A DNA stretch of 63,327 nucleotides, the filler included, from Kipferlia bialata (taxonomy: Eukaryota): assembly GCA_003568945.1 (NCBI GenBank). It is 8 parts of 8 records of this genome, joined end to end, with 100 filler letters (N's around TTAATTAATTAA, not from the genome) between each part and the next. Parts side by side here need not be neighbours in the genome. Positions count along the whole stretch, not along the records: positions 26,530 to 37,635 come from BDIP01001293.1; 7 more parts are not named here. One strand, written 5' to 3'. The position numbers and the translations under genes were made by a program. Each line of letters begins with the position of its first letter. The first letter of the stretch is position 1. Shown here piece by piece: positions 6,001-49,302 of the stretch. A model generated the notes under the pieces. The model worked only from the letters and a program-made list of their open reading frames with translations. It did not search any database and was not told the origin of the DNA.

Positions 6001-9000
6001 AGTCACAGTGTCGCCAGGTACATTATCTCTCTCTCTCCCTATATAGGCCCACGTTTCTTTTACCACCACCTTGTTACCTCTGTCCAGTAGTGTGTGACAG
6101 TATCCATACATATGCACTACAGTATCTCCTCGTTTCTCTACATTGACTCAAGGCGATCCAGTTGCCTCTTCGACCACTCTATCCCCCCTTGTAGGAGTTG
6201 CTGGGACGTCCACACATTTCACTGTGACAAGTAGTGACACGCACGGTAACACGATCACTGCAGGTGTGGACTGCAGCCTCTCCCTCAGTCCCACCTTTGC
6301 CTCTGGTGTATCCTCTGTCTCCTACACCTCGGGTGTCGGATATGTAGGGGACCTTGCCCTTGGCAGCACTTATGGTGCCCAGACAGTCTATGGGCGCTTC
6401 ACAGAGACAGGGACTAGTACCCTGGTAGCGTCCTTCTCTGATGTAGTGGCTGCTGTTGCTGATATCCCTGTCGTCAGCAGTACCACCCTGACACCTACCC
6501 TGGCTGTGGCAGGTGCATCTACGGAGTTCACCGTGACAAGTCGTGACAGTCACGGCAACGCGGTCAGTGACACCACTGTGACATGTGAGATTAGCAGTGA
6601 CGCCGCCTTCACTAGTGTCGTTGCCCTGTCCTATACTACAGGGACAGGCTTTGTGGGGTCTCTTACCGTTAGGACTCTAGCCGGGTCTCAGAGTATCTAT
6701 GGACGCTTCAAGGATCTCTCGACTGGCAACGTGCTAATCACATTCTCGGAGTCCGTTATAGTACAGCCTGCTGCCCCGGATCCGACTCGCACCACTCTCT
6801 CCCCCCTCTCTCTGGTGGCTGGTGTGTCTACTCTGTTCAGTGTGACAAGCAAGGATCAGTATGGCAACACTGTTAGCACCACTGTAGATTGCTCCCTTAG
6901 CGCTGATTCATCGTTTACCAGCTCCGGCGCTCTCTCTCTCTCTGGTACCACCTTCTCTGGTAGTGCTGATGCACCTACCACTGCTGGTACACAGACAATG
7001 TATGGTCGCTTTACAACACCTGCCACTAGCACTGTGGTAACATCCTTCTCTGTAGGTGTTACTGTCTCTGCCAGTGACCCTGTGGCTGCTAGTACTACTC
7101 TATCCCCCACAGAGATGGTGGCTGGGGAGGACACTCTCTTCACAGTGACAAGTACTGATGCCTATGGTAACACAATTGTGGGTGGAGTGGATTGTGAGAT
7201 TACCACATACTCCTTCTCCAACCAGAGTGTATTGCCATATACACACTCTCTCCCTGGGTTCTCAGGGTCCATGGTTGCCAACACACTGGCTGGAAATCAG
7301 AAGGTGTGTATTCATAGCAGTAGTTGTATAATTTGTGCTGAAATGATACTCCCATCACTCTTTGTAAGCTATTATGACACTAACACTAGATATATGGGAA
7401 GTTCTATGAGTGTGGCACCACCACCATCATCACAGCCTTCGATATATCCGTCAAGGTCCTGCCTGCCGCCCCTGTCGCCTCTGGAGTCTCTCTCTCTCCC
7501 TCGGTAGTACCTGCTAGTGACTCTACTGAGTTCACTGTCACCGCCTCTGATCAGTATGGCAACATAGTATCCACTACTGCATCCTGTGGGGCTGGTCCCT
7601 CTTTCACGGAGCTAGAGACGTTCTCCTATGGTGCTGGTTTGGGTTATGTAGGCAGTGTCTCTGGCTACACGGTAGCTGGGGCTCAGTCTCTGGCAGTCAA
7701 GTTCAGTGATGCCGGTACGTCTCTCTCTTTCTCTCTGTGTGTGTCTATTCCCCTCTTCTTCATCCCTCTTCGCATCTACTCACCCTAGTCACTGAGGCAC
7801 GTGTTAGAGCCATCCCTCCTCTCTCTCACTCTCTCTCTCTCTCTATTGACCCTCTATATATTCATTCGTATACTCACTCCAGTCACGGAGACCACCCTAC
7901 TAGAGCTCTCCCTCCCCTTCACTGTCGTCCCCTCCACCCCCATAAAGTCCTCTATCAGCCTGGTACCCGATCAGATGTGCATATGTGCCGGCGCCACTCT
8001 AACAGTATCCGGCACTGACATGTATGGAAACAGCGCGCTATCTGAGAGTGCAGAGTGTACCCTCAGCACTGCATCAGACTTTTCCTCCACAGCGACGTCT
8101 GTCTCTCTCTCTCCTGTCTCTGGGGCAGGGTTCACGGGCATGTTCACACATGACACCGCTGGTGATCTGACTGTGTTTGGCCGGTTCACATCACCTGGGT
8201 CTAGTGAAGTGCTCTTGTCGTTCTCTCGCGAACTGAGTGTGTTAAGCAGCGTACCTTGTACCGAGAACAGTAGCCTCTCTCTACCCACGGGCTCAGTGGT
8301 AGCCGGAGAAGCATTTGAGGTGGGTGTACTTGTATGTAAGTTCTTGTTCAATTCTCATGTATCGTGAATATGTATGTTGTAGAGTATCTCACTGTAGGTG
8401 TCTGTCAGTACGTGTGATGAGTGTGGTAACACTCTCAATCCTCAGAGGTCCGATGCATTGGTATCACTGTACATCAATGACACACTCTCCAGCACGACCT
8501 ACGATACAACTGCAATTGCGTACACTGTCAGTGCAACGCGGTATACTGCCGGTGACTACAGTGTGTCTGCAGTGTATGAGGAGGGTACTGAGGGCGAGGT
8601 GACCTTCCTGAGTGGGTACTCAATCTCTGTGGGGCCTGCTGCTGCCGATGCTGGTCTGAGTGTACTAGACACACCAGCAGAGCTAGAGGCCAAGACGGAT
8701 GTCACACTGACAGTCAGTCTCAAGGTACGACACCTATATATAGATACTAAAGGATTGTCTGGTAATATGTTCATGTATGTATGTGTATATCCCCTTTTTC
8801 CTTTCTTTTACCGTGAATAGTATATAGATTAATCCCTTTTTACCATCTCACCCCAGGACGCCTATTCCAACACAATCTCTGAGTCAGTGGTGGTTGTGGG
8901 TCTTGAGGATGTTTACTATAGCCTCGTGTTTGATACCACGTCAGGGTTATACTCTACCACAGTGACCCTCCCATCTGCCGGGGTTCACTCAGTGTCAGTA

Positions 9001-11110: not shown

Positions 11111-11210
11111 NNNNNNNNNNNNNNNNNNNNNNNNNNNNNNNNNNNNNNNNNNNNTTAATTAATTAANNNNNNNNNNNNNNNNNNNNNNNNNNNNNNNNNN
11201 NNNNNNNNNN
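11111..11210. other. Artificial contig-joining spacer (44N-TTAATTAATTAA-44N); identical spacers at 15224-15323, 26430-26529, 37636-37735, 48839-48938, 55256-55355 and 60091-60190
   Basis: Identical 100-nt design each time; the core gives stop codons in all six frames. Genes are truncated on both sides. Confidence 0.98.
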
Positions 11211-26395: not shown

Positions 26396-26541
26396 GTTAG
26401 TATATACACACACATATATATGTATATATNNNNNNNNNNNNNNNNNNNNNNNNNNNNNNNNNNNNNNNNNNNNTTAATTAATTAANNNNNNNNNNNNNNN
26501 NNNNNNNNNNNNNNNNNNNNNNNNNNNNNACTCACTCCCAG

Positions 26542-27058
26542 GACCACCTACACTACGGCTGACGATGCCTTGTCTGCAGTGAGGACATACTACACGGGTG
26601 TCACAATGTGGGAGACAGTCGAGAAGGACATAGCCAGTGTCAAGTTCTCCAGCGTGTATAGCCCATCCCATTACTATCTCGACTGTGGTAATGGCTACAC
26701 CCTGAGGGACAATGGCTTCTCCGGTGTTGGATCTTGGTTGTCCGCTAGTGACGTTGTGGGTCAGTATGCCGTGGTGGTGTATGATACCCCTACACTTGTG
26801 GGTGCCATAGCCACAGCAGGCAGACCATTTGACTTTGATCAGTATGTGACAAGCTACGCGATTGAGTACTTCGACCCAGCCGTGGACGAGTGGGTATCCG
26901 TGGTTGAGAGCAAGGAGTCGTTTGTGGGCAACACAGATATGAACACCATTGTGCTACATACCCTGTCAGAGCCTGTCGTTGCCGATAGGGTGCGCATCCG
27001 TGTGTTGAGTTGGTATGGGCGCATAGCTATGAGGTTGGAGGTATATGGATGGCAGTGA
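26542..27058 (+). CDS. Terminal exon of a protein ending in an F5/8 type C (discoidin) domain
   Basis: Acceptor ctcactcccag at 26531-26541; motifs W..(SW), AIATAGR, QYVTSYAIEY, FVGNTD, EPVVADRVRIRVLSWYGRIAMRLEVYG typical of FA58C domains. Confidence 0.85.
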
Positions 27059-27546
27059 GTGAACAATGTGTCTGTCTCACATGTCAAGCATACATACGTG
27101 AATAGAAACTTGAAAGAGGCAGCTGGTATAGAGGGTGTGCGCCGGTCTCAGCCTAGCACCATCACGAGGGCTGGTTTACCTACCAAAGTGCCGTCCCCTA
27201 GTGTCCAGGTACAGCCCTGGTGGTCAGAAGTCCACTATAGATGGAGGGTCCTCTAAGCGTGTAGGATGTTGAAGGATTAGTACACACCGTCTTTTCCCTG
27301 GTCCCGATGTTGGAGAGAAAGAGAAATGTCAGTGCGATGCGCAGAACTGACACAGAACCCTGTGTAGAAGTATTGCTGCTAGTATCACGGCTAGCCTATC
27401 TTTCTGCTTCTTCACTCAGTTGAAGTGTTACTCAAGTAGAAAGGGTCTAGTGTGTTTTTGATCCTCCTCCTCAGACACCGTCCTTGACCTCCATATCCAA
27501 CGGTATAGGGGAACACAGGCCAGTGGGCAGTAGATCTCAGCGAGAT

Positions 27547-28054
27547 ATGGAGGCTGGCCTCAATGTGCTGATCATCAAGTGGTCATATGTGTGTGTGACT
27601 GTGTTGTGCACCCTGGTACTGGCTGTGCATGGCATTAGTGCATGCCGCAAGAGGCACACCAGGGAGGGCAAGGGGGGCATCACAGAGGTCACGGCAGCTC
27701 TGTTCGAGGTGGGTGAGGGACAGATCCGTTGCTCTACGTGGTGTGTGGGTGACAGTCGTATCTGACCTTTTGTATACTATATATATATTTGTCTGCTTAC
27801 TCTTACTTACCCTCTAGGTGTATGCTCTGTTTGTATTGAGGACCATCCTGTTCACTGTTCCCGGGGCATCCTGGCTGGCCCTGTTCACAAAGTACCCAGG
27901 TGATACTCAGGCGTATCTCTCTCTCTCTCTCTCCTCTGTCATTATCATGCCATATCCAACTACCCCTTCCTCTCTCTCTCTCTCATGTAATGCTATGTGA
28001 AATCCCTTTCTCTTACCCTTGCCCCAGCCATCCAGGGTGGTATTCCCCATCCTG

Positions 28055-28086
<32 letters not shown>

Positions 28087-28269
28087 CAATACCTATCTGT
28101 AACCCCTCTCTAATTCTATACTTAAACCTCTCTAACCCCATCAGTCCCCATCCAGGGCATCCTCCTGTCCCCCCATCACCCCCCCCCATCACCCCTCTCT
28201 CTCAGTATAGTCACAGATATCCGCTCTCATTTACCCTTTGACCCCAGCCGTCCAGGGCATCATCGACAT

Positions 28270-28326
<57 letters not shown>

Positions 28327-29719
28327 GACCTCTTATATATACTTTTGACCTCTTTGACCCCAGCCGTCCAGGGCATCATCGACCTCTCCCCCGAGGTCAT
28401 GTTCTTCTCTCTCTTCTGGACCCTGCTGGTCAGGTCGGCCTTTCTGTCCAGGATGGACTTCTCCCCAGAGGCCGTGAATAAGGTATTGGATTGAAAGTCG
28501 TTGTATATAGGTAGTATATATATATATGTGTATATGATATATAGTATATATATATAGTATATTGATATTACGATAATCTCAAATCTCTACTCCTACCAGG
28601 TCAAGAGGGATGCCCGCCTTGGTGTGGCCGTTGAGACTGTTGGTGCCCTACTCTTTGTTGCTGCTGCCTCCACCGCACACTACATAGACCCAGAGAGGTT
28701 CCCATTCACATACGCAACTGTATTCGACTTCGAAGGTGGGTCAAACAGTGCATATATCCCTCTCACTTCCCCTCTTCCCTCGTTACCTCTCTTACATCAG
28801 GCATATTCAACATGGTGTCCCTGCTCTGCGTCATTGCAGTCTCGGCAAAGGTATATGTGCTCTATACCGTCGATATATACCATCAGTACCGTGTGTAAGT
28901 AGTACTGGACAGATATCCTCAATCGTTATGTTTCTCCCTCACCCCCCCCCCTTCCCCTCCCTTACCCCTCAGGTCCTCTCCAATACCTCCCCGGCAAAGC
29001 TCAGAATACACCCCAGAATGACTAGTCAGATCATATCGGCCCAGTTCTTTAGGTACAACTGTCTCTCTCTCTCTCTCTCTCTCTCTCCCTTACCCTGTAG
29101 GTCCCTTGTCATGGTTCTCTTCAGTCTCTCTCTCTCTCTCTCTCTCTCTCCCCCTCACTCCCTAGGTCCCTTGTCATGGTTCTCTTCAGTCTCTCTCTCT
29201 CTCTCTCCCTCACTCCCTAGATCCCTTGTCATGGTTCTCTTCATTGTCTTCTGCCTCAAGGCCTGTGTGGTGCTGCTACTCAACGTCCTTCTATACCCAG
29301 ACCATGTCTCGACAGACGTGTACAGGTGGGTGGGGTGGTTTGCATACTCTTATGCTATGTTAACTCAATAGTCTGTTCCACCCTATATATCTGCCGTCTG
29401 GGGTCAGTGGTTTACATGTCAAGAGTAACGTGTGTAGTGTCCTAGTCAACTCTCTAACACCCAGATACAGCACCCTGGTCTACTTCCTTGTCCTAGAGAT
29501 AGTCCCATGCTGCTGGGCCATATACAGACTGCTCACGGCTGACAGGTGGGGTCATTCTCATTATACACTTGATGAATGAACGTATGATAGTAATAACAGT
29601 GTCTGTGTAGTCAGTGGTGACATAGTATTTGTCTCTTTCTATCCCCCTCACCCAGGTTCTTCAAGCGTAAGCTGAGGGAGTTCAACTCTGACAGAAGGGG
29701 CCTCACTGCATTCGCATAG
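27547..29719 (+). CDS. Multi-pass (about 7 TM) membrane protein, TOM1/TOM3/THH1-GPR137-like
   Basis: Nine exons from ATG 27547 to TAG 29717-29719. Hydrophobic helices include DLSPEVMFFSLFWTLLV and LVYFLVLEIVP, resembling the DUF1084 motifs DLPxxxFFS and YYxxxEILP (from recall). Confidence 0.6.
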
Positions 29720-29721
29720 GA

Positions 29722-29753
<32 letters not shown>

Positions 29754-30023
29754 GATGGAAAGACTCACACCGCGGCAGGTGTGCGAGACACTTAGATTTG
29801 ACTGCTTCATAGCAGAGGTGCTGGTTTGCACAAAGTATTGTATAATAATAGATATGTAGTCACAGTCCAAGAAGCCCAAACCCAATAATTGGTTAAGTAT
29901 TTATGCATACGCTATTAGGACAAGGGAACAGGACATGGCTCCACCACTCAGTCCCCCTCGGAACAGGAGGGAAGACACCGGGAGACCACTGGAGATTGAC
30001 TAGAACAAAGGGGGAGAGGGTGA

Positions 30024-31058
30024 TTACTCGCTCTTCTTGCTCTTCTTGGACTTCTTCTTCTCCTTCTTCTCCTTCTTCTCCTTCTTCTCCTTCTTGACTG
30101 GGGGTTAGAGAGAGTGAAACAGAGTATTAGAGAGAGAGTATGCGTACCGCGCTTGGCCTCCTTCTCTGGGGCCTCGGCTCCCTCCTCAGTCTCAACCTCT
30201 CTGGAGCGCTTCTTCTTCTTCTTCTTCTTCTCTCCGTCCTGGGGTTAGATCCAAAAGAGACAAGTGTGGCACGTAGAGTGTATGTAAAAGTAGGCGTGTT
30301 GTGATGCATACCTCGGACTTGTCCTTCTTGCTCTTCTTGGACTTCTTCTTGGACTTCTTCTCTGGGGGTGAGGGGGTATACACGAAATACATAGACTATA
30401 TGTAGAGAGAGACATGGACGTACCCTCGCCCTCCTCGATCACGGTCTCCTCAACCACAGTCTCCTCAACCACAGTCTCCTCAGCCTCCATGGCAACGTCC
30501 TCACCGGCAAAGTACTTGCCCTCGCGGGTCACCTGGTTCTGCTCGTTGTAGGCCTGGGGGTGAGGAATGGAAATATGGTACCATACTCGAAAGAGAGAGA
30601 GAGAGAGAGAGTGATGTGCGTACCGTGATGTTGTGGTCGATGGAAGACCTGATCTCCCTGGCCACAGTGTTGCCCTCGAGCTCCCTCACCCTCTTCTCGA
30701 GCTTGGTGGCAACGTCCTCGGCCACAGTGATGCCCTAGCGGGTTAGAGATACATGTACATAGGGTGTGCATGCATATATGTGTATGTATATATATATGTA
30801 GGTACCTTGTCCACGCTGAATGCATCGACACGGGCACAGATGGCAGCACAGGCACCAAGGGCACGGGCAAGCTTACCCTGAAGGTCAGAGACAACACACT
30901 TCGAGAGGGACATAAAGAGACAGAGGTACGACCCTGACTTTACATATGTACCTTGTTGTTGGGTGCGCACTGTCCGAGCATCTTGGCGTGGAAGATGATT
31001 CCATACTTCGGGGTGGGGGCCTTCTCCTGCAGGGCACGGAACAGAGCCTGGGGGTAAG

Positions 31059-31094
<36 letters not shown>

Positions 31095-31559
31095 GAGAGA
31101 GAATGAAGACACGCACCTTCTCGGCTCCGATGATCTGGATGGTGGATCCGGCGTACTTGGCAAGGGTGAGGAGGGAGCCGGCGTGGCCGATGAGACGGGC
31201 GGTCACGACCTAGGGGTGAGTATATATGTATATATATAGTATATACATATGTACATACATACACACACCTCTCCGATGATGGCTGCCAGGTTGGGTGACA
31301 CAGCCCTGACCCTGTTGAGGAGGTACTCGTGGAGGTCAGCGTGTGCAGAGCCAAGGGCCAGCACCTGCTCGGCAACCTCACCGATACTGGGGGGTCAGAC
31401 GGGTGTAATAGATAGAGACATAGATAGATAGATACCAGGGTCAGAGGGGTGTAATAGATATATATAGAAGTATATTGTGTGTGTGTGTGAAGGTACATAC
31501 CGGGCCATATCCTCCTCAGTGATAGCGGCACCGATGGAGGCGTTTCCAGACTCGCAGAC
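30024..31559 (-). CDS. NOP58: Nucleolar box C/D snoRNP protein Nop58 (Nop56/58 family), 3' part; 5' part lies in the N gap
   Basis: Nop domain [63 protein letters not shown], GQxxPxxKGK and [11 protein letters not shown] favour Nop58 over Nop56; [11 protein letters not shown] tail; stop at 30024-30026. Confidence 0.85.
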
Positions 31560-32551
31560 CTATGCGTGAGAGAATGAACCATGAAGGAGTAGAGAGAGAG
31601 AGGGTAGTGTCGGAGAGAGGGTAGTGTCGGAGAGTGGAGGGTGTGTGTGTGTGGGGGGGGGGGGGGGGGGGGGGTTTTTGGATGTGGGGTNNNNNNNNNN
31701 NNNNNNNNNNNNNNNNNNNNNNNNNNNNNNNNNNNNNNNNNNNNNNNNNNNNNNNNNNNNNNNNNNNNNNNNNNNNNNNNNNNNNNNNNNNNNNNNNNNN
31801 NNNNNNNNNNNNNNNNNNNNNNNNNNNNNNNNNNNNNNNNNNNNNNNNNNNNNNNNNNNNNNNNNNNNNNNNNNNNNNNNNNNNNNNNNNNNNNNNNNNN
31901 NNNNNNNNNNNNNNNNNNNNNNNNNNNNNNNNNNNNNNNNNNNNNNNNNNNNNNNNNNNNNNNNNNNNNNNNNNNNNNNNNNNNNNNNNNNNNNNNNNNN
32001 NNNNNNNNNNNNNNNNNNNNNNNNNNNNNNNNNNNNNNNNNNNNNNNNNNNNNNNNNNNNNNNNNNNNNNNNNNNNNNNNNNNNNNNNNNNNNNNNNNNN
32101 NNNNNNNNNNNNNNNNNNNNNNNNNNNNNNNNNNNNNNNNNNNNNNNNNNNNNNNNNNNNNNNNNNNNNNNNNNNNNNNNNNNNNNNNNNNNNNNNNNNN
32201 NNNNNNNNNNNNNNNNNNNNNNNNNNNNNNNNNNNNNNNNNNNNNNNNNNNNNNNNNNNNNNNNNNNNNNNNNNNNNNNNNNNNNNNNNNNNNNNNNNNN
32301 NNNNNNNNNNNNNNNNNNNNNNNNNNNNNNNNNNNNNNNNNNNNNNNNNNNNNNNNNNNNNNNNNNNNNNNNNNNNNNNNNNNNNNNNNNNNNNNNNNNN
32401 NNNNNNNNNNNNNNNNNNNNNNNNNNNNNNNNNNNNNNNNNNNNNNNNNNNNNTTTGTTTTGCCCCTTTTCCCCCCCCCCCCCCCCCCCCCCCCCCAACC
32501 TATTTGGTGGTATATCCGTATCCTTTTGTTTCTGCTGTCACTCACGCCCAG

Positions 32552-35500
32552 ACAAGGTCCAGAAGACACTCTCCCTCAGCGACACCCAGTTTGTTTCCAC
32601 TCTCTTTGGCAAGGAGTGGCAGCTTGCCCTCAAGGCCCCGCCCCTCCCTCCCAAGCCCACCATCCACGCCGTGTCCAAGAACCACCCGCTCTACACCAAC
32701 ACCCTCCAGTGCCTGCCCGACGACATGAAGAGCCGGGTCTTTGCTGTACGCACTGGCACTGTCCCCTCCCGCAAGGGTCTCTACCTCAAGGCCAAGCAGA
32801 ACCTGGGTGTGGGTGAGCGTGTCCCCATCTACCATGGTACTGCAGAGCCCTGGCGTGCCACCCAGATCGCACTCAACGGCTTCGACCTCAACCTCAAGCT
32901 CAACGGCAGGGCACTCGGGGACGGTGTCTACACGACCTCCGACCCCAACACCGCCAACGGGTATGCCAGGGGGAGCGGCTCCATCGTTGTGATGCGGGGC
33001 CTCCTCTCCACCGACATCACCCCGGCAAGCAGCGACGTCATCTTCGTCTACACCAAGCCCGAGCAGCTGTTGTGTGAGGCCATTGTGGACTTCTCAGCCG
33101 ATACCTCTGGCAGAGAGGCTGCCGCTGATGCCGCCGCTGACGAGGAGGAGGCTGAGGCCCGGGAGCTTGCTGCGCTGAAGCGTGACATGAAGCAGAGAGA
33201 GGCCAGTCACAGGGTCACGATGACTAGGGACTGGAGGCAGATGCTGCAGGGGTATCTCGACAGACTGCAGGGGTGGCAGAGGCAGATACCAAAGGGTAAC
33301 AAGGGGGCAGCGGAGAGGGAGATGCTGGCCCACAAGGTGGAGCTGGAGCAGAAGCAGTTCGAGAGCCGCCTCCCCATCTACCTCCACAAGGGTGAGGTCG
33401 TGCAGCAGCTGAGGGCGAGAGATGTCCTCTTTGTGAGTGCACCCACTGGTACTGGCAAGAGTACCCAGCTGCCTCAGTACATAGTGGACGAGGTGTTCCC
33501 CAACGACACTCGCCGTGTTGCTGTGCTGCAGCCAAAGCGCGTCAACTGCACCTCTCTCGCTGCCAGGGTGGCCTCTGAGCGTGGCGGTGTTGTGGGTGAG
33601 GAGGTGGGGTACAGCATGGGAGGCGGTGCCGTCTGTACGAGTGAGCAGACCCGCATTGAGTTCATCACCCACGGTCTCTTTGCCTGCATGTCCCTCAACG
33701 GAGACCTCAGGGCCAAGTACTGTGCTGTCGTGCTGGACGAGGCCCACGAGCGGACCATTGAGGTCGACATGTCTCTTGCCCTGATCAGACGTGCCCTCAG
33801 GGGCGAGGGTCCACGGAAGGACACTTCCAAGGAGCTGTCCTTCAAGGTAGTTGTCTGCAGTGCCACTCTGAGTGAGGACACAGTCGACACCCTCAAGGAG
33901 TACGTCGACCCCGACTGCACCAGGTCTGCTGTTGTGGAGCTGCCCAGCCACTCCTTCCCTGTCCACGTCATGTACAGAGACCAGGCTCTGCTGCAGCAGG
34001 ACGACAGCACCACCACCCAGGGCAACGTCATGACGTCTGCCGCAGTGGACACCGCCCTCCAGCTCTTCAAGCAGACAGACCGAGGCAACATCCTGGTGTT
34101 CCTGCCAGGTATATAGTATTGGTGTCTTCCACAGTCTCTCTCTCATGTTGTACTAATATTGTTAAAGAGCGGTGTTCAAATTGTCTCTAACGTCAGGCCA
34201 CCACCACCTGTCCCTGGCCTTCGACTGCTTCCATCGCTACCTAGAGGGCGAGGCCGGTCACAGTATCAACACTCTAGAGCACTCCCTCAGGTTCAACACT
34301 GAGAAGAAGGAGACGGTGGGAGTCTTCAAGTTCCACGGACGGCTCTCTGCTACGCAGCGCAACATTGTCCTCAACTACGCGGACCACGGCTACGACCGCA
34401 TCATCGTGTTTGCCACCATCGTTGCCGAGACTGGTATCACCATCCCTGACTGCCGCTACGTTGTGGACTCTGGACTCGAGCGGACTGTGCGGTGGAACGC
34501 AGAGCTGGGCTGCAACGAGATGCGCACGGCCCTAGCCTCCCGCTCCTCCCTCGAGCAGCGCAAGGGCCGCGCAGGCCGTACTGCATCCGGTGTATGTGTC
34601 CGCCTCTACTCCAAGGAGATGTTCGAGGAGGCGCAGCAGGCCCACCCCCCTGGCGTCACTGAGAAGAACGTCCAGACGGTTCTGCTGCGCCTACTGCACG
34701 AGCAGGAGAAGGGCAACGATATCAGGATGCCGGAGGAGATCCCCCAGAGCGCCAGGGAGGAGGCGACTGGTGTACTGCAGGAGCTAGGTGCTGTGTCGGA
34801 GACAGGGGAGGTTACGAGAGAGGGCAAGTTCATGCTCGACCTCGGCGTCGACTTCCGCCTTGCCTCCTTCCTCCTAGCCTGTGACAACCTAGGGTGTCTG
34901 ACCAGTGGCAGCATCATCGTTGCCATGGCTACCACCACCGGCACTCTCACCATGCTACCCCTGAAGCCTGACTCCCGAAACAAGTCCCCGCTCAAGCCAC
35001 CCCTGGAGGAGTACTTTGACTGCAGTGGCGACCACGTGACCCTGCTCAACATCTTCAAGGGATACAAGGCGGCCAAGAGCAAGACCTCCTGGTGCATCGA
35101 TCACGATGTGCCCCATGACACCATGAAGACAGTCCAGGCCAACCTCGATTCCATTCTGGAGCGACTTTCTTCAAGGTATGCATATGTACTATACTCATGT
35201 ACATATGTCTGCTACTGCTACGTGACAGTGTATGTTCTTGTTGGTCGCACTCCTAACATCCAGGGGCTGCAGTCTAAAGGATGATCCCGAGAAGACCGCT
35301 GAGCACGGTGGCACCCACAGCTGCATCCTGCGCTCCCTCTGCGTTGGGTTCTTCGACCACATTGGTGTTCTCAAGATCCCCTTCCAGCCTGAGAGTGGCG
35401 TCACCCGCCTGCTACCTGCTGCCCAGGTCGGGTCCAAGTGCGAGGCCCTCAACCAGTTCGTGCAGGACGTTGGCCCCCGCTGTGCCCAGGCCTCAGCGGT

Positions 35501-37035
35501 ACCCGAGGCCGACGAGGTGCTGGTCCTCGTGGACAGACGCTCCGCCCTGCACAACGCACAGGAGGCCGCCGACAGGGATGACGCTGACCCTGGCGATGGT
35601 AGCATGGTTGTCTTCCACTCCCAGATGATGGTCGACAGTGCCAGGTACCCCAAGGTCCAGCTGGTCTCCTACATCTCGAGCGAGGACCTCTCTGACATAT
35701 CACCCGGTATGCGCAAGGAGATTGAGAGGAGCAAGCGCAAGTTCTCTTGTGTTGTGCGGAAGGTTCCTCTCTCCAAGAAGCAGTGGGATGTGATTCGCAG
35801 CCACATGAGTGTGTTCATGTCCCAGCTGAGACGGATGCACCCCAACGCTGGTATCAGCGTCGATACCTCCGACCACCCTAGACGCACTCTAGTGGTGTCA
35901 GCCCCAGAGAGTTCCATCGACCACATCATGGATAAGGTAATTCCATTGTGCATTGCATGCATCCTTACTGTGTGTGTAAGACATCATATCATGTCACTAA
36001 TGTCAGGTGGAACGCAAGCTAGAGACTGCGGAGACTGAGGATGTGCTGGTAGAGCTGCCTGAGGGCATGCTGTGCAAGCACATCTCCTCCAAGATGAAGA
36101 AGCTCAAGGCAGATCTGGAGGCCCTACTCCAGGAGTCTGACTGCTTGGGTCCCTTCAACGTCTGCCTGGACTTCAACGCCAACGCCATCAAGATCACTGC
36201 CGGAGGAGACGCCAAGTGCCAGCTGGCTCTGCTGATTGGCCGTGTCCACAGCTTCCTTGCCACGCACTCCAACAGCCACGTCACTCTATCCATGACGGCC
36301 GAGGGCAGTGAGGGCCGGGCTATCGTGACAAACCCTCGGTACCGCCAGCTTGCAACCTCAGCCACCCCCCAGATAGTGCGAGGGGGCCGCAACAACATGA
36401 TGCTGTTACTCTCGCACCACCTGATCTGGCAGTGCAAGTGCACAGTGTATGGCGGCATGGTGAGGGACTGGGTGATCAGGAACGAGGCCGCCAACGACAT
36501 TGACTGTCTCCTCCCCAACATGAGCATGATGGTCTCAGTCAAGGGCACTATTGAGAGATTTGCATCAAGGCTGGGCCTGCACAAGGTGGAGGAGAGGCAG
36601 CAGCCAAACAGCTACATGATCAGGTTCGGCGGCACCAGCGGCAAGGATATCCGGGTGGAGCTGGTCGACCCCCTGCTCCCCACTGCCGCCCCCCACTGCG
36701 ACTGCTCTGCTGGCAATGTCTGTGTCAACGCCAAGGGCGTCATGGCCAAGAAAGCCCATGCCGGTGGGAACACAGTCACCCTCGCCGAGTGCATCACGCA
36801 CATCAAGAAGAAGCAGTTTGTGTGCTTCCTCGACTGGAACGCCCCTCAGAACGCAGGGTCTCTGCTGGGTAGGGTCAAGGACAAGTACCTCGACCGTGGC
36901 TGGTCCCTGTTGAACCAGCTGCCCACTGCTCAGATGCGGCAGCTGCAGAGCCAGGCTGAGTACTCAAACTGGCATAGAAGGGGGCAGCTGCAGTTTGATC
37001 CCAAGTACACAGGCCTCGACTGGTCCAAGATCTAG
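32552..37035 (+). CDS. 5'-partial (>1400 aa) multidomain protein: PARP-type ADP-ribosyltransferase, DEAH-box RNA helicase with HA2, two KH-like repeats and a C-terminal class II nucleotidyltransferase
   Basis: Exons 32552-34108, 34197-35175, 35264-35936 and 36007-37035 join in frame. PARP: IYHGT (His at 32833), GRALGDGVYTT, VIFVYxKPEQ. Helicase: LPIY, GTGKSTQLPQ (33448), QPKR, DEAHER (33736), SAT, LVFLPG, ATIVAETGITIP, QRKGRAGR. NTase: VYGGMVRD (36445) and DID (36496). Confidence 0.9.
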
Positions 37036-37384
37036 TCCCAGTGCCAATTGATACATTAGTCAATAGAGTATTACTATACACAATTTGGATGAGTTTTATA
37101 TCTCAATCACATAACTGATATATATCATTATTGTGTGCTACTCCATTTACTGTTTGATGTGTCTATGACACTTGTCTATGACGTGATTGAAGACTGGTTC
37201 AGGTGCAGACATCATCAGTGCTCTATATCATTATTCAAAGTCAGCACGCATACCTGCCACTAGTGTTAATGCACTTTGGATCTGGGGGCCCACATCTCTG
37301 GCCAGTCAAGACAGAGCATGCTAATGGTCCTGAATCTCCAGGCGTTGTCATTCTCAGGTTCGGACGAAACAGCACAATTAATAA

Positions 37385-37569
37385 TCAGAATGTCCAGGTG
37401 CCCGTTGGCAGCACTATTAGCACTACAGAGCCGAGGGTGTTGCCAGGTAATGCTGAGGCTGCAAACTTAGTGCAGGCACTGACGATGAGGGAGCAGGCCT
37501 TGTCGACGGGGAATCCGAATATACCGGTGGATATGCAGGGTATGGCGATGGAGGCTATGCACCACAAAC
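37385..37569 (-). CDS. Terminal exon of a macrodomain (ADP-ribose binding/hydrolase) protein; the rest is lost at the contig end
   Basis: Acceptor ctgaccccag on the minus strand at 37579-37570. Translation SIAIPCISTGIFGFPVDKACSLIVSACTKF...LGSVVLIVL matches the macrodomain signature SIA(F/I)PxISTGI(Y/F)G(F/Y)P plus the final helix and strand. Confidence 0.8.
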
Positions 37570-37583
37570 CTGGGGTCAGTGCA

Positions 37584-37621
<38 letters not shown>

Positions 37622-37735
37622 AAAAAATTTATTTTNNNNNNNNNNNNNNNNNNNNNNNNNNNNNNNNNNNNNNNNNNNNTTAATTAATTAANNNNNNNNN
37701 NNNNNNNNNNNNNNNNNNNNNNNNNNNNNNNNNNN

Positions 37736-47645: not shown

Positions 47646-48194
47646 ATGTCCATGACCCAGGAGCAGAAGCAGGCGCTTGTGAACGAGGTATGCGCCGTAT
47701 TCTTCATGTTGTGTGTTGTTTTAACGGGGCGTGGCCATATGATTGTTCTTCTTTAAATTGATGAAGCAACCTTTATCCTCTCACGCCCTCTCATGCCGTC
47801 TCTGACTTCTCAGGCAGTTGAGGCTGGCAAGAACGCCTACTGCATCTACTCCAAGTACGTTGTGGGAGCCTGTCTTCAGACCCCCTCCGGCAAGTACATC
47901 CGGGGATGCAATGTGGAGAACGCCTCCTACGGTGCCTCCATCTGTGCCGAGAGGTGCGCAGTGTTCTCTGCTGTGGCCCAGGGTGAGCGTGAGTTCGATG
48001 CGGTTGCTGTGATTGGCATGGGAGGTGCTGTCCCCTGCGGCATGTGCAGACAGGTGCTGAACGAGTTCAACCCCAAGATGGTGGTGCTGGTGGGAGACCT
48101 CGACGGCAAGATCGTGCTCGACACCACCCTCGACTACATGCTGCCCCATGCCTTCGGTCCCTCCAACCTGCTGGACCTCAACCTCAAGGAGTGA
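47646..48194 (+). CDS. CDA: Homotetrameric-type cytidine deaminase, 140 aa, 2 exons (47646-47687, 47814-48194)
   Basis: AYCIYSKYVVGA, GCNVENASYGASICAERCA and PCGMCRQ zinc-binding motifs; phase-0 intron. Confidence 0.95.
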
Positions 48195-48838: not shown

Positions 48839-49302
48839 NNNNNNNNNNNNNNNNNNNNNNNNNNNNNNNNNNNNNNNNNNNNTTAATTAATTAANNNNNN
48901 NNNNNNNNNNNNNNNNNNNNNNNNNNNNNNNNNNNNNNAAGAAGAGGGGAAGGGGGGGGGGGGGGGGGGGGGGGGGGGGGTGGACTATTGTGTGTGTCAT
49001 TGGTACGGGTGTTGTAAACAATGTATATTTGGGCTTCCACTTGCGTGTATAGTCAGTAGTCATATATATATATACATTATGTAGGAAAGCAATTAGTCAA
49101 CTTGCCGAATTGAGGGAGAGGGGGGGGGGGAGACAATGTATATATGTGTGAGATTCTCATTGTCACTACGACGGTGATCATAAAAGTCATATTCAGCAGA
49201 GGGGAGTGGAGTGAAGGAGAATGACAAAAGGAGTAGAGGGAGAGATATATGAAGCGGGGGGGGGGGGGATGGGCTATCCTGCATAGAGAGAGAGACACTC
49301 AC

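What the first reader, a model, noticed from the sequence alone, without database searches (positions are those of the whole stretch)
32552..37035. PARP + DEAH helicase + KH-like + nucleotidyltransferase fusion: candidate RNA-triggered defence enzyme
Seen: four in-frame exons encode about 1410 aa with intact motifs for three enzymes. These are an ADP-ribosyltransferase (H in IYHGT, Y in GDGVY, and a hydrophobic third triad position in SDVIFVY-K-EQ), a complete DEAH/RHA helicase (motifs I-VI plus an HA2 region), and a GGxVRD...DxD nucleotidyltransferase; two degenerate KH-like beta-alpha-alpha-beta-beta-alpha units (~35750-36270) lie before the last. Known: H-Y-hydrophobic ARTs with an IFVxF...Q tail are mono-ARTs such as PARP11/12/13 (ZAP), several of them antiviral; DEAH helicases and KH domains bind RNA; GGxVRD/DxD is the class II PAP/CCA catalytic head. 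Inference: one polypeptide that captures or unwinds RNA, then ADP-ribosylates and tails it or makes a nucleotide signal. I do not recognise this architecture from any characterised protein.
Basis: partly seen in the sequence, partly recalled or inferred. Interest (0 to 1): 0.92.

Follow-up and report, generated by a model that had tools for sequence, protein, structure and literature searches.

The report
Protist four-enzyme RNA helicase family
This protist gene, which is longer than its annotation, joins an RNA helicase to predicted enzymes that add ADP-ribose, remove it and add nucleotides; the same build recurs in distantly related protists and likely serves to mark foreign or damaged RNA, though no activity has been tested.

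Summary
Four exons give the annotated Kipferlia bialata protein KIPB_005499; all three introns are spliced in a probable RNA run. An RNA contig runs 1,086 nt further upstream, across the N gap, and joins in frame to a second annotated fragment, KIPB_011887, which holds a macrodomain and a Nudix domain. The full protein (at least 1,795 aa) is Macro–Nudix–ART–DEAH helicase–KH–KH–nucleotidyltransferase. Of 140 relatives of the NTase, 25 put the ART before the helicase as here; 8 put ART and WWE domains after it. Named carriers are metamonads, oomycetes, chrysophytes, a rhizarian and a choanoflagellate. Catalytic motifs are kept across the family. The ART is closest to PARP12/14, the macrodomain to PARP14 macro-1. 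The NTase has a class II head but lacks the CCA-templating motifs. It resembles phage Gad2 by language-model features, and giant-virus contigs encode the same NTase family. Best reading (0.5): an RNA-triggered defence enzyme that modifies RNA ends. No activity was tested. Ten paper searches found no description, but two key surveys could not be read.

The parts
31691..32453 (.). Assembly gap. The missing 5' exons (Macro + Nudix = KIPB_011887, at least 383 aa) belong upstream of 32552; they are not in the window.
   Evidence: RNA contig 6 runs 1,086 nt past 32550; 261 codons + 1 nt predicted and 261 residues found; loose ends translate to P0007 residues
32552..34108 (+). First exon in the window (an internal exon): ART, helical linker, RecA1
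32647..33093 (+). ADP-ribosyltransferase domain; H96 (32833), Y128 (32929), Y139 (32962); third triad position likely I165 (33040)
33358..34630 (+). DEAH/RHA helicase core, RecA1 + RecA2, motifs I-VI (crosses intron 1)
   Evidence: Pfam DEAD E 1.2e-7, Helicase_C E 1e-12; PDB Prp2 E 3.5e-29; motifs
34109..34196 (+). Intron 1, 88 nt; also kept in one RNA contig, where it would bring an in-frame stop
   Evidence: joint and contig 7; stop seen
34197..35175 (+). Exon: RecA2, HA2
34646..35723 (+). HA2 (winged helix + ratchet) and a conserved region in the place of the OB fold (OB is inferred from position only)
   Evidence: Pfam HA2_N E 0.0054; conserved in relatives
35176..35263 (+). Intron 2, 88 nt
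35264..35936 (+). Exon: OB-like region, start of KH1
35745..36267 (+). Two KH-fold domains (residues 1008-1080 and 1081-1158) without a GxxG loop
   Evidence: model pLDDT 94; FBP KH3-4 Z 8.7, vigilin KH Z 7.8, rmsd 2.5; sequence
35937..36006 (+). Intron 3, 70 nt
36007..37035 (+). Last exon: KH2, NTase, stop; the RNA contig continues to 37119
36292..37032 (+). Nucleotidyltransferase with class II head: GGMVRD (36451), D1235 (36496), D1237 (36502), third carboxylate likely E1289 (36658)
37385..37569 (-). Convergent neighbour: last coding exon of a paralogous macrodomain, 84% identical to the gene's own, ending right after the domain
   Evidence: Pfam Macro E 8.5e-6; 43/51 identical to P0007; X2 contigs 9 and 10

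Best explanation
The gene encodes one protein of at least 1,795 residues, Macro–Nudix–ART–DEAH helicase–KH–KH–nucleotidyltransferase, that likely acts in defence by loading on foreign or aberrant RNA and chemically marking its ends. Shown: the domain order, the splicing, the intact catalytic motifs, the conserved family, and giant-virus copies of the NTase. Inferred, step by step: (1) the helicase, with the KH pair, grips single-stranded RNA and moves along it 3' to 5', as DEAH helicases do (established knowledge). (2) The NTase, predicted to pack rigidly on the KH pair (pTM 0.91), would add untemplated nucleotides to the 3' end, giving the helicase or a nuclease a handle. (3) The Nudix domain would remove a 5' cap and leave a 5' phosphate. 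(4) The ART would mono-ADP-ribosylate that phosphate or bound proteins, as PARP10/11/15 do on phosphorylated RNA ends. (5) The macrodomain would reverse the mark and the Nudix would clear free ADP-ribose, which keeps the response off on self RNA.
For: One polypeptide; single open frames of 2,058 and 2,027 aa with Nudix-ART-helicase-NTase in 2 of 29 loci; end-to-end alignment at 30-35% identity with 9 of 13 chosen relatives. All five motif sets kept in 24 of 25 type A proteins, so the enzymes are likely under selection together. RNA substrate: DEAH core, KH folds, and best fold matches to RNA-end enzymes TUT1, FAM46 and CCA-adding enzymes. Defence: ART closest to PARP12 (E 1.1e-6) and PARP14; macrodomain closest to PARP14 macro-1 (E 1.2e-20), a hydrolase on protein and nucleic acid (PMC10499325, abstract and section 6); accessory domains vary between members (WWE, IBR/RING, CCCH, kinase, LRR, PARG); at least three NTase copies in Kipferlia; the same NTase family on giant-virus contigs (hhalign 96.9-98.2%); Atlas score 0.96 with the phage anti-defence protein Gad2.
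Against: No activity, substrate, induction or phenotype was tested. The KH domains lack GxxG and could bind protein (PMC10450202, passages). The Nudix profile does not single out decapping enzymes: CoA, ADP-ribose and 8-oxo-dGTP hydrolases score alike (E about 5e-4 to 1e-3) and a viral decapping enzyme lower (E 0.0036). Only 7 of 25 type A sequences show a macrodomain, though many are 5'-incomplete. In the other arrangement WWE and IBR/RING domains point to protein targets. The Kipferlia copy has Ile at 595 where 34 of 37 aligned rows have Asn in helicase motif V, which may weaken it. The Gad2 link rests on one kind of evidence; tblastn against phage records found nothing significant. Viral copies fit any useful RNA-end enzyme, not only counter-defence.
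Confidence: 0.5

Rival explanations
1. RNA-sensing signalling hub with protein or small-molecule output: the helicase senses RNA, the ART modifies proteins, Macro and Nudix trim or erase the mark, and the NTase nucleotidylates a protein or makes a soluble nucleotide signal.
For: All 8 type B proteins carry WWE domains, 3 of 10 scanned WWE-bearing long proteins have weak IBR hits. Gad2, the nearest Atlas match, inhibits a protein defence complex (bioRxiv 2023.05.01.538930, passages). The NTase lacks RRD (4 of 127) and EDxxR (5 of 127) of tRNA-tailing enzymes. KH domains are degenerate.
Against: The top fold matches are RNA-end enzymes, and no cGAS, OAS or CD-NTase is among the rows shown (absence from a list is inconclusive). 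The NTase is predicted to pack on the KH pair and follows the helicase in both arrangements.
Confidence: 0.27
2. Housekeeping or repair enzyme for RNA ends: it heals and re-tails broken tRNA, rRNA or mRNA, or feeds aberrant RNA to decay, like a one-chain TRAMP with Tpt1-like end clean-up.
For: ART + Nudix fusions and nucleotidyltransferases are proposed parts of RNA repair systems (PMC9503650, section 3.7.3). Helicase plus non-canonical polymerase is the TRAMP plan (recalled). The gene is covered end to end in a probable RNA run with no known challenge.
Against: The ART profile matches PARP12/14 and tankyrase, with no Tpt1/KptA in the 60 rows shown. No ligase or 2H domain was found in the scanned members. 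Only 140 clusters at 50% identity among 1.84 billion, none of the 12 named clusters from animals, fungi or land plants, and shuffled accessory domains are unusual for a core gene.
Confidence: 0.18
3. Artefact: separate genes joined by gene prediction, or KIPB_011887 belongs to another locus.
For: The 763-base gap is too small for the missing exons; no single RNA contig spans the whole gene; intron 1 is partly retained.
Against: Contig 6 holds exon 1 and the macrodomain on one record with exact frame arithmetic; relatives have the same order in single open frames.
Confidence: 0.03

Closest known systems
PARP14 / PARP9 / PARP15 (macro-PARPs) and PARP10/12 (clade 3 mono-ARTs)
   Same: Mono-ART-type domain closest to PARP12/14; macrodomain closest to PARP14 macro-1; KH folds; WWE in type B members; predicted writer and eraser in one chain.
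   Different: ART is N-terminal to a DEAH helicase, not C-terminal; one macrodomain, a Nudix domain and an NTase; no RRM-KH array. Not an orthologue by architecture.
Class II nucleotidyltransferases (CCA-adding enzyme, bacterial poly(A) polymerase; PF01743)
   Same: GGxxRD and DxD head; best VIA match T. maritima CCA enzyme, Z 8.8, rmsd 3.9 over 171 residues; weak PF01743 hits in 7 of 33 members.
   Different: No RRD, no EDxxR templating motif; no body or tail domains; own motifs PxVDxDxxN and RxxKYxxRGW; fused to KH and helicase.
Gad2 (Gabija anti-defence 2, PF26128) and small phage or giant-virus NTases
   Same: Atlas score 0.96, 185 of 256 features; phrog_1614 NTase in 10 of 33 members; BFVD giant-virus matches to E 7e-7.
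   Different: Gad2 is a stand-alone phage protein whose NTase is itself only predicted (bioRxiv 2023.05.01.538930, passages). No direct sequence comparison with Gad2 was made.
Plant DEAH11/DEAH12-type helicase-KH-RBR proteins (architecture recalled)
   Same: DEAH helicase followed by KH folds; IBR/RING in some type B members; one weak KH_DEAH11 hit (E 0.03).
   Different: Type A has no RING/IBR, and adds Macro, Nudix, ART and NTase.
TRAMP (Mtr4 + Trf4) and TUTase-based RNA surveillance (recalled)
   Same: Helicase coupled to an untemplated nucleotidyltransferase.
   Different: One chain; DEAH rather than Ski2-like helicase; class II head; ADP-ribose enzymes attached.

Membership tests
DEAH/RHA helicases | Motifs I-VI with DEAH and QRxGRAGR | tested here: met
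DEAH/RHA helicases | HA2 and OB fold after RecA2 | tested here: inconclusive
   HA2_N E 0.0054, below cut-off; HA2_N E 9.6e-7 in relative P0029; no OB hit; region not folded
PARP-like (diphtheria-toxin-fold) mono-ARTs | H-G-T and G-x-G-x-Y motifs, PARP profile match | tested here: met
   H 39 of 39, Y128 38 of 39, Y139 38 of 39; family profile vs PARP12 E 1.1e-6; relative P0063 above Pfam cut-off and E 1e-15 to the query ART
PARP-like mono-ARTs | Non-glutamate third triad residue | tested here: inconclusive
   No Glu at the I165 column in the rows printed, but the column is assigned from a recalled PARP12 motif; the ART was not folded
Macro-PARPs (PARP9/14/15) | Macrodomain N-terminal to an ART | tested here: met
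Macro-PARPs (PARP9/14/15) | C-terminal ART after tandem macrodomains, no helicase or NTase | tested here: not met
   ART is followed by about 1,230 residues of helicase, KH and NTase
MacroD-type hydrolases | NAAN, glycine loop and GIFG motifs | tested here: inconclusive
   HGSGVAGAI and TGIFGFP present; NAAN lies before the start of the partial P0007, present as NAAN in 4 and as NPAN in 1 of 7 relatives; activity untested
Nudix hydrolases | Nudix box RExxEE | tested here: met
   19 of 21 aligned, including P0007; Pfam NUDIX to E 1e-10 in relatives, none for P0007 itself
CCA-adding enzymes / bacterial poly(A) polymerase | Pol-beta head with GGxxRD and DxD | tested here: met
   122 of 127; fold
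CCA-adding enzymes / bacterial poly(A) polymerase | RRD and EDxxR motifs, body and tail domains | tested here: not met
   RRD 4 of 127, EDxxR 5 of 127; domain ends within 60 aa of the C terminus in 127 of 138
Gad2 family (PF26128) | Profile match to PF26128 | not testable with these tools
   No Pfam scan returned this model; only the Atlas feature score
cGAS / OAS / CD-NTase | Class I head with Mab21/OAS helical lobe | tested here: inconclusive
   Not among the rows shown; class II matches rank first
DEAH11/12 helicase-RBR | C-terminal RING-IBR-RING | tested here: not met
   None in P0005; weak IBR only in type B
DEAH11/12 helicase-RBR | Helicase groups with DEAH11/12 in a tree | not tested
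   No DEAH11/12 sequence was fetched

The most novel reading that the evidence does not exclude
An undescribed innate-immune enzyme of microbial eukaryotes that rewrites both ends of a captured RNA in one pass: decap, ADP-ribosylate the 5' end, tail the 3' end, and reverse the mark on self. Its nucleotidyltransferase is a new family shared with giant viruses, which may use their copies against it as phages use Gad2.
Probability: 0.3. Interest if true: 0.93.

Novelty: categorically new. Interest (0 to 1): 0.8.

Why it matters
Antiviral immunity of protists is little known. This family puts the toolkit of vertebrate antiviral PARPs (mono-ART, hydrolase-type macrodomain, KH, WWE) on an RNA helicase with a nucleotidyltransferase that Pfam does not name, in lineages across the eukaryotic tree. 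It offers a one-protein test of whether RNA ADP-ribosylation is an ancient defence mark, and a candidate host target or source for giant-virus NTases. The parts are known; the combination and the NTase family were not found described. If it proves to be a protein-modifying hub like PARP14, it drops to a new variant of a known kind. It also corrects an annotation: KIPB_011887 and KIPB_005499 are one gene.

Tried and rejected
No whole genome is held. Folding the last exon without an alignment failed (pLDDT 36). Single-sequence PDB searches missed the NTase and the ART; the NTase profile gave only E 0.37 to a plant CCA enzyme. The word-based search for longer NTase relatives found only the gene itself among 485 candidates; the alignment search looked only at 3,816-5,000 aa proteins and found nothing. 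No prokaryote relative: 22 pattern matches, none confirmed. Phage records: nothing significant. Viral contigs: no relative of the ART (7 matches, none confirmed); one short NTase fragment. PADLOC and NCBIfam gave generic helicase and macrodomain hits only. The NTase tree (65 of 138 rows, quick method, 32 of 62 inner branches open) does not resolve types A and B and shows no donor. No listed holder is on record as RNA; X2 is RNA by guess and by its spliced joints; runs X3 and X4 hold next to none of the words. The DNA left of the gap was not checked against reads, so the scaffold join is open. cGAS/OAS were not among the fold matches shown. No complex was predicted. Rejected: separate genes; CCA-adding enzyme; PARP14 orthologue; ordinary splicing helicase (Prp2-like hits cover only the helicase core).
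Full report
1. The observation. The window has four plus-strand exons, 32552-34108, 34197-35175, 35264-35936 and 36007-37035, with GT..AG introns of 88, 88 and 70 nt. Spliced, they give 1,411 residues, identical to the annotated Kipferlia bialata protein KIPB_005499 (P0005, 1,413 aa) from residue 3 on. Two runs of one sample were laid on the gene. X1 (DNA, possibly the source) covers 32508-37511 in one contig with no difference. X2 (RNA by guess) skips all three introns; one contig spans exons 2-4 to 37119. The intron-1 joint has only 26 letters on its short side, and another X2 contig keeps that intron.

2. The gene is longer. X2 contig 6 (2,646 nt) holds exon 1 and 1,086 nt more upstream. 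Part of that matches, with 5 differences in 101, a macrodomain exon at 37455-37555 on the other strand. Searching with that exon returned one protein, KIPB_011887, partial, 383 aa (P0007). The contig predicts 261 codons plus one base between a fixed serine and base 32552, which is the phase exon 1 needs; P0007 has exactly 261 residues after that serine. The loose ends of the reads translate to P0007 residues 79-88 and 123-131, and contig 6 has the 202 letters that X2's loose end shows. So the two annotations are one gene, cut by the gap at 31691-32453. P0007 holds a macrodomain (Pfam E 1.6e-31) and a Nudix box. The full order is Macro–Nudix–ART–helical linker–DEAH helicase–HA2–OB-like–KH–KH–NTase, at least 1,795 aa; the start is still missing. 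The gap is too small for these exons, so its size or the scaffold join is wrong.

3. The domains. Helicase: Pfam DEAD and Helicase_C above cut-off, PDB Prp2 E 3.5e-29, motifs I-VI intact, with Ile for the usual Asn in motif V. ART: weak alone (Pfam E 0.06; no PDB hit; Atlas 0.90 to a PARP cluster). In the family, His is kept in 39 of 39 rows and both tyrosines in 38 of 39; a Nudix+ART profile of 10 rows hits PARP12 at E 1.1e-6, then PARP14 and tankyrase. No printed row has Glu at the likely third triad column, which suggests a mono-ART; that column is assigned from a recalled motif. Macro: best PDB hit is PARP14 macro-1 (E 1.2e-20). KH-KH-NTase: an AlphaFold2 model from 80 sequences has pLDDT 94.4 and pTM 0.91. 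VIA-align ranks CCA-adding enzymes first (Z 8.8, rmsd 3.9, 171 residues) with KH domains beside them (FBP Z 8.7; vigilin Z 7.8, rmsd 2.5); these Z values are middling, but Foldseek agrees (TUT1, FAM46, CCA enzymes, E about 1e-4). GGxxRD is in 122 of 127 NTase rows, both DxD aspartates in 122, RRD in 4 and EDxxR in 5: a likely active class II head without CCA templating.

4. The family. phmmer with the NTase over 1.84 billion representatives gave 140 proteins at E up to 0.001, the query included. Local profiles sort them into 25 with the ART before the helicase (type A, query included; Nudix seen in 20, Macro in 7), 8 with the ART after the helicase (type B; all with WWE), 33 partial or other ART, WWE or helicase fusions, 72 others (mostly short) and 2 without a firm NTase match. 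Pfam confirms full Macro-Nudix-PARP-helicase order in the choanoflagellate protein P0077. All five motif sets are intact in 24 of 25 type A and 6 of 8 type B proteins. P0005 aligns end to end at 30-35% with 9 of 13 chosen relatives. Two metagenome loci hold type A in one open frame and one holds type B, of 29 loci. Of 30 clusters looked up, 12 name an organism: Kipferlia, Chilomastix, Carpediemonas, Eukaryota sp. TZLM1-RC, Aphanomyces stellatus (both types), Lagenidium, Pedospumella, Chlorochromonas, Paulinella and Choanoeca. One search from a divergent query does not give the true range. No prokaryote relative was confirmed.

5. Viral links. The Atlas puts the NTase at 0.96 with phage clusters partly labelled Gad2 (25-97% of members). 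Gad2 is an anti-Gabija protein with a predicted NTase domain (bioRxiv 2023.05.01.538930, passages). Ten of 33 members match phrog_1614, a phage nucleotidyltransferase, and the best BFVD matches are giant-virus proteins (E 7e-7). Three of 28 metagenome loci are gene-dense, low-GC contigs; one carries a giant-virus major capsid gene, another Rpb2 and MutS. The NTase frames of these two align with the family over the whole domain (probability 98.2 and 96.9%), and one recurs at 95% on a giant-virus MAG contig. The direction of transfer was not tested.

6. How it likely works. See Best explanation. The anatomy gives an RNA motor, a predicted rigid KH-NTase unit behind it, and an ADP-ribose writer, eraser and clean-up set in front of it. 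PARP10, 11 and 15 ADP-ribosylate phosphorylated RNA ends and MacroD-type hydrolases reverse this (PMC6582358, abstract). PARP14 has both activities in one chain (PMC10499325, abstract and section 6) and carries type I KH domains (PMC10450202, passages). I put 0.5 on RNA-end marking in defence, 0.27 on protein or small-molecule signalling, 0.18 on housekeeping repair or decay, 0.03 on artefact. All steps beyond architecture and motifs are inferred.

7. Is it known? Ten searches of the held library found no paper describing this architecture; I saw listings and abstract openings for most hits. The viral NAD+-ADPr survey (PMC9503650, passages and section 3.7.3) mentions a KptA-Nudix fusion but, in what I read, not this family. 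The eukaryote PARP survey PMC2964712 has no occurrence of helicase, Nudix, nucleotidyl or IBR in its main text. PMC13224862 and PMC13670838 were read as passages. Two recalled Aravind-group surveys (RNA repair 2016, asked for and not held; ART natural history 2015, not asked for) and all figures and supplements were not seen and could show it. Earlier notes of this scan describe a rotifer helicase-KH-NTase-PARP gene; these are unchecked AI notes, not tested here, and suggest a third arrangement.

8. Verdict. Real, spliced, conserved and larger than reported. It works like an RNA-binding antiviral PARP joined to a helicase-polymerase pair, but fails membership of macro-PARPs, CCA enzymes and DEAH11/12. 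Novelty: categorically new as a combination, function untested. Interest 0.8.

Noticed in passing
window 37385-37569 (-): A convergent neighbour ends in a macrodomain 84% identical to the gene's own and stops right after it: a recent duplicate that could be a stand-alone eraser or decoy. Its 5' part runs off the scaffold.
   Followed up: partly
window 34109-34196: Intron 1 is kept in one RNA contig (depth 14.2 against 30 for the spliced joint; contig depth is a poor measure). Retention would end the protein after RecA1, leaving Macro-Nudix-ART without a working helicase or NTase.
   Followed up: no
L029:7623-10304, L027:6031-8541, L028, L030: Giant-virus contigs (major capsid protein on L027; Rpb2 and MutS on L029; L030 is a giant-virus MAG contig) encode 800-900 aa proteins with this NTase family at the N terminus and no Pfam match. 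L027's ends in GG plus a basic tail, recalled as typical of virion proteins.
   Followed up: partly
P0008, P0009 (Kipferlia, outside the window): Further Kipferlia copies: KH-KH-NTase (KIPB_010413) and an NTase annotated at two loci (KIPB_003670, KIPB_003501). They may be stand-alone or pieces of split genes.
   Followed up: partly
P0089, P0104, P0140, P0109, P0116, P0102: The NTase also occurs fused to kinase + ART, microbial PARG + WWE, LRR, RRM, RING, and in the order NTase then PARP.
   Followed up: no
window 11111-11210, 15224-15323, 26430-26529, 37636-37735, 48839-48938, 55256-55355, 60091-60190: Pairs of 44-N runs around 12 bases (TTAATTAATTAA at 37680-37691) look like artificial linkers: the window is a chain of scaffolds, and this gene's scaffold is 26530-37635. 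Genes beyond are not true neighbours.
   Followed up: partly
window about 30127-31560 (-): 3' part of a Nop56/Nop58-like gene (Pfam Nop E 3e-15), head to head with this gene; its 5' part must also lie in or beyond the 763-base gap, which is therefore too small.
   Followed up: no
window 6098-7504, 26486-27055, 47757-48191, 53929-54537, 56208-57206: Other frames with Pfam hits: filamin repeats, F5/8 type C domain, cytidine deaminase, FG-GAP repeat, weak MIZ zinc finger.
   Followed up: no
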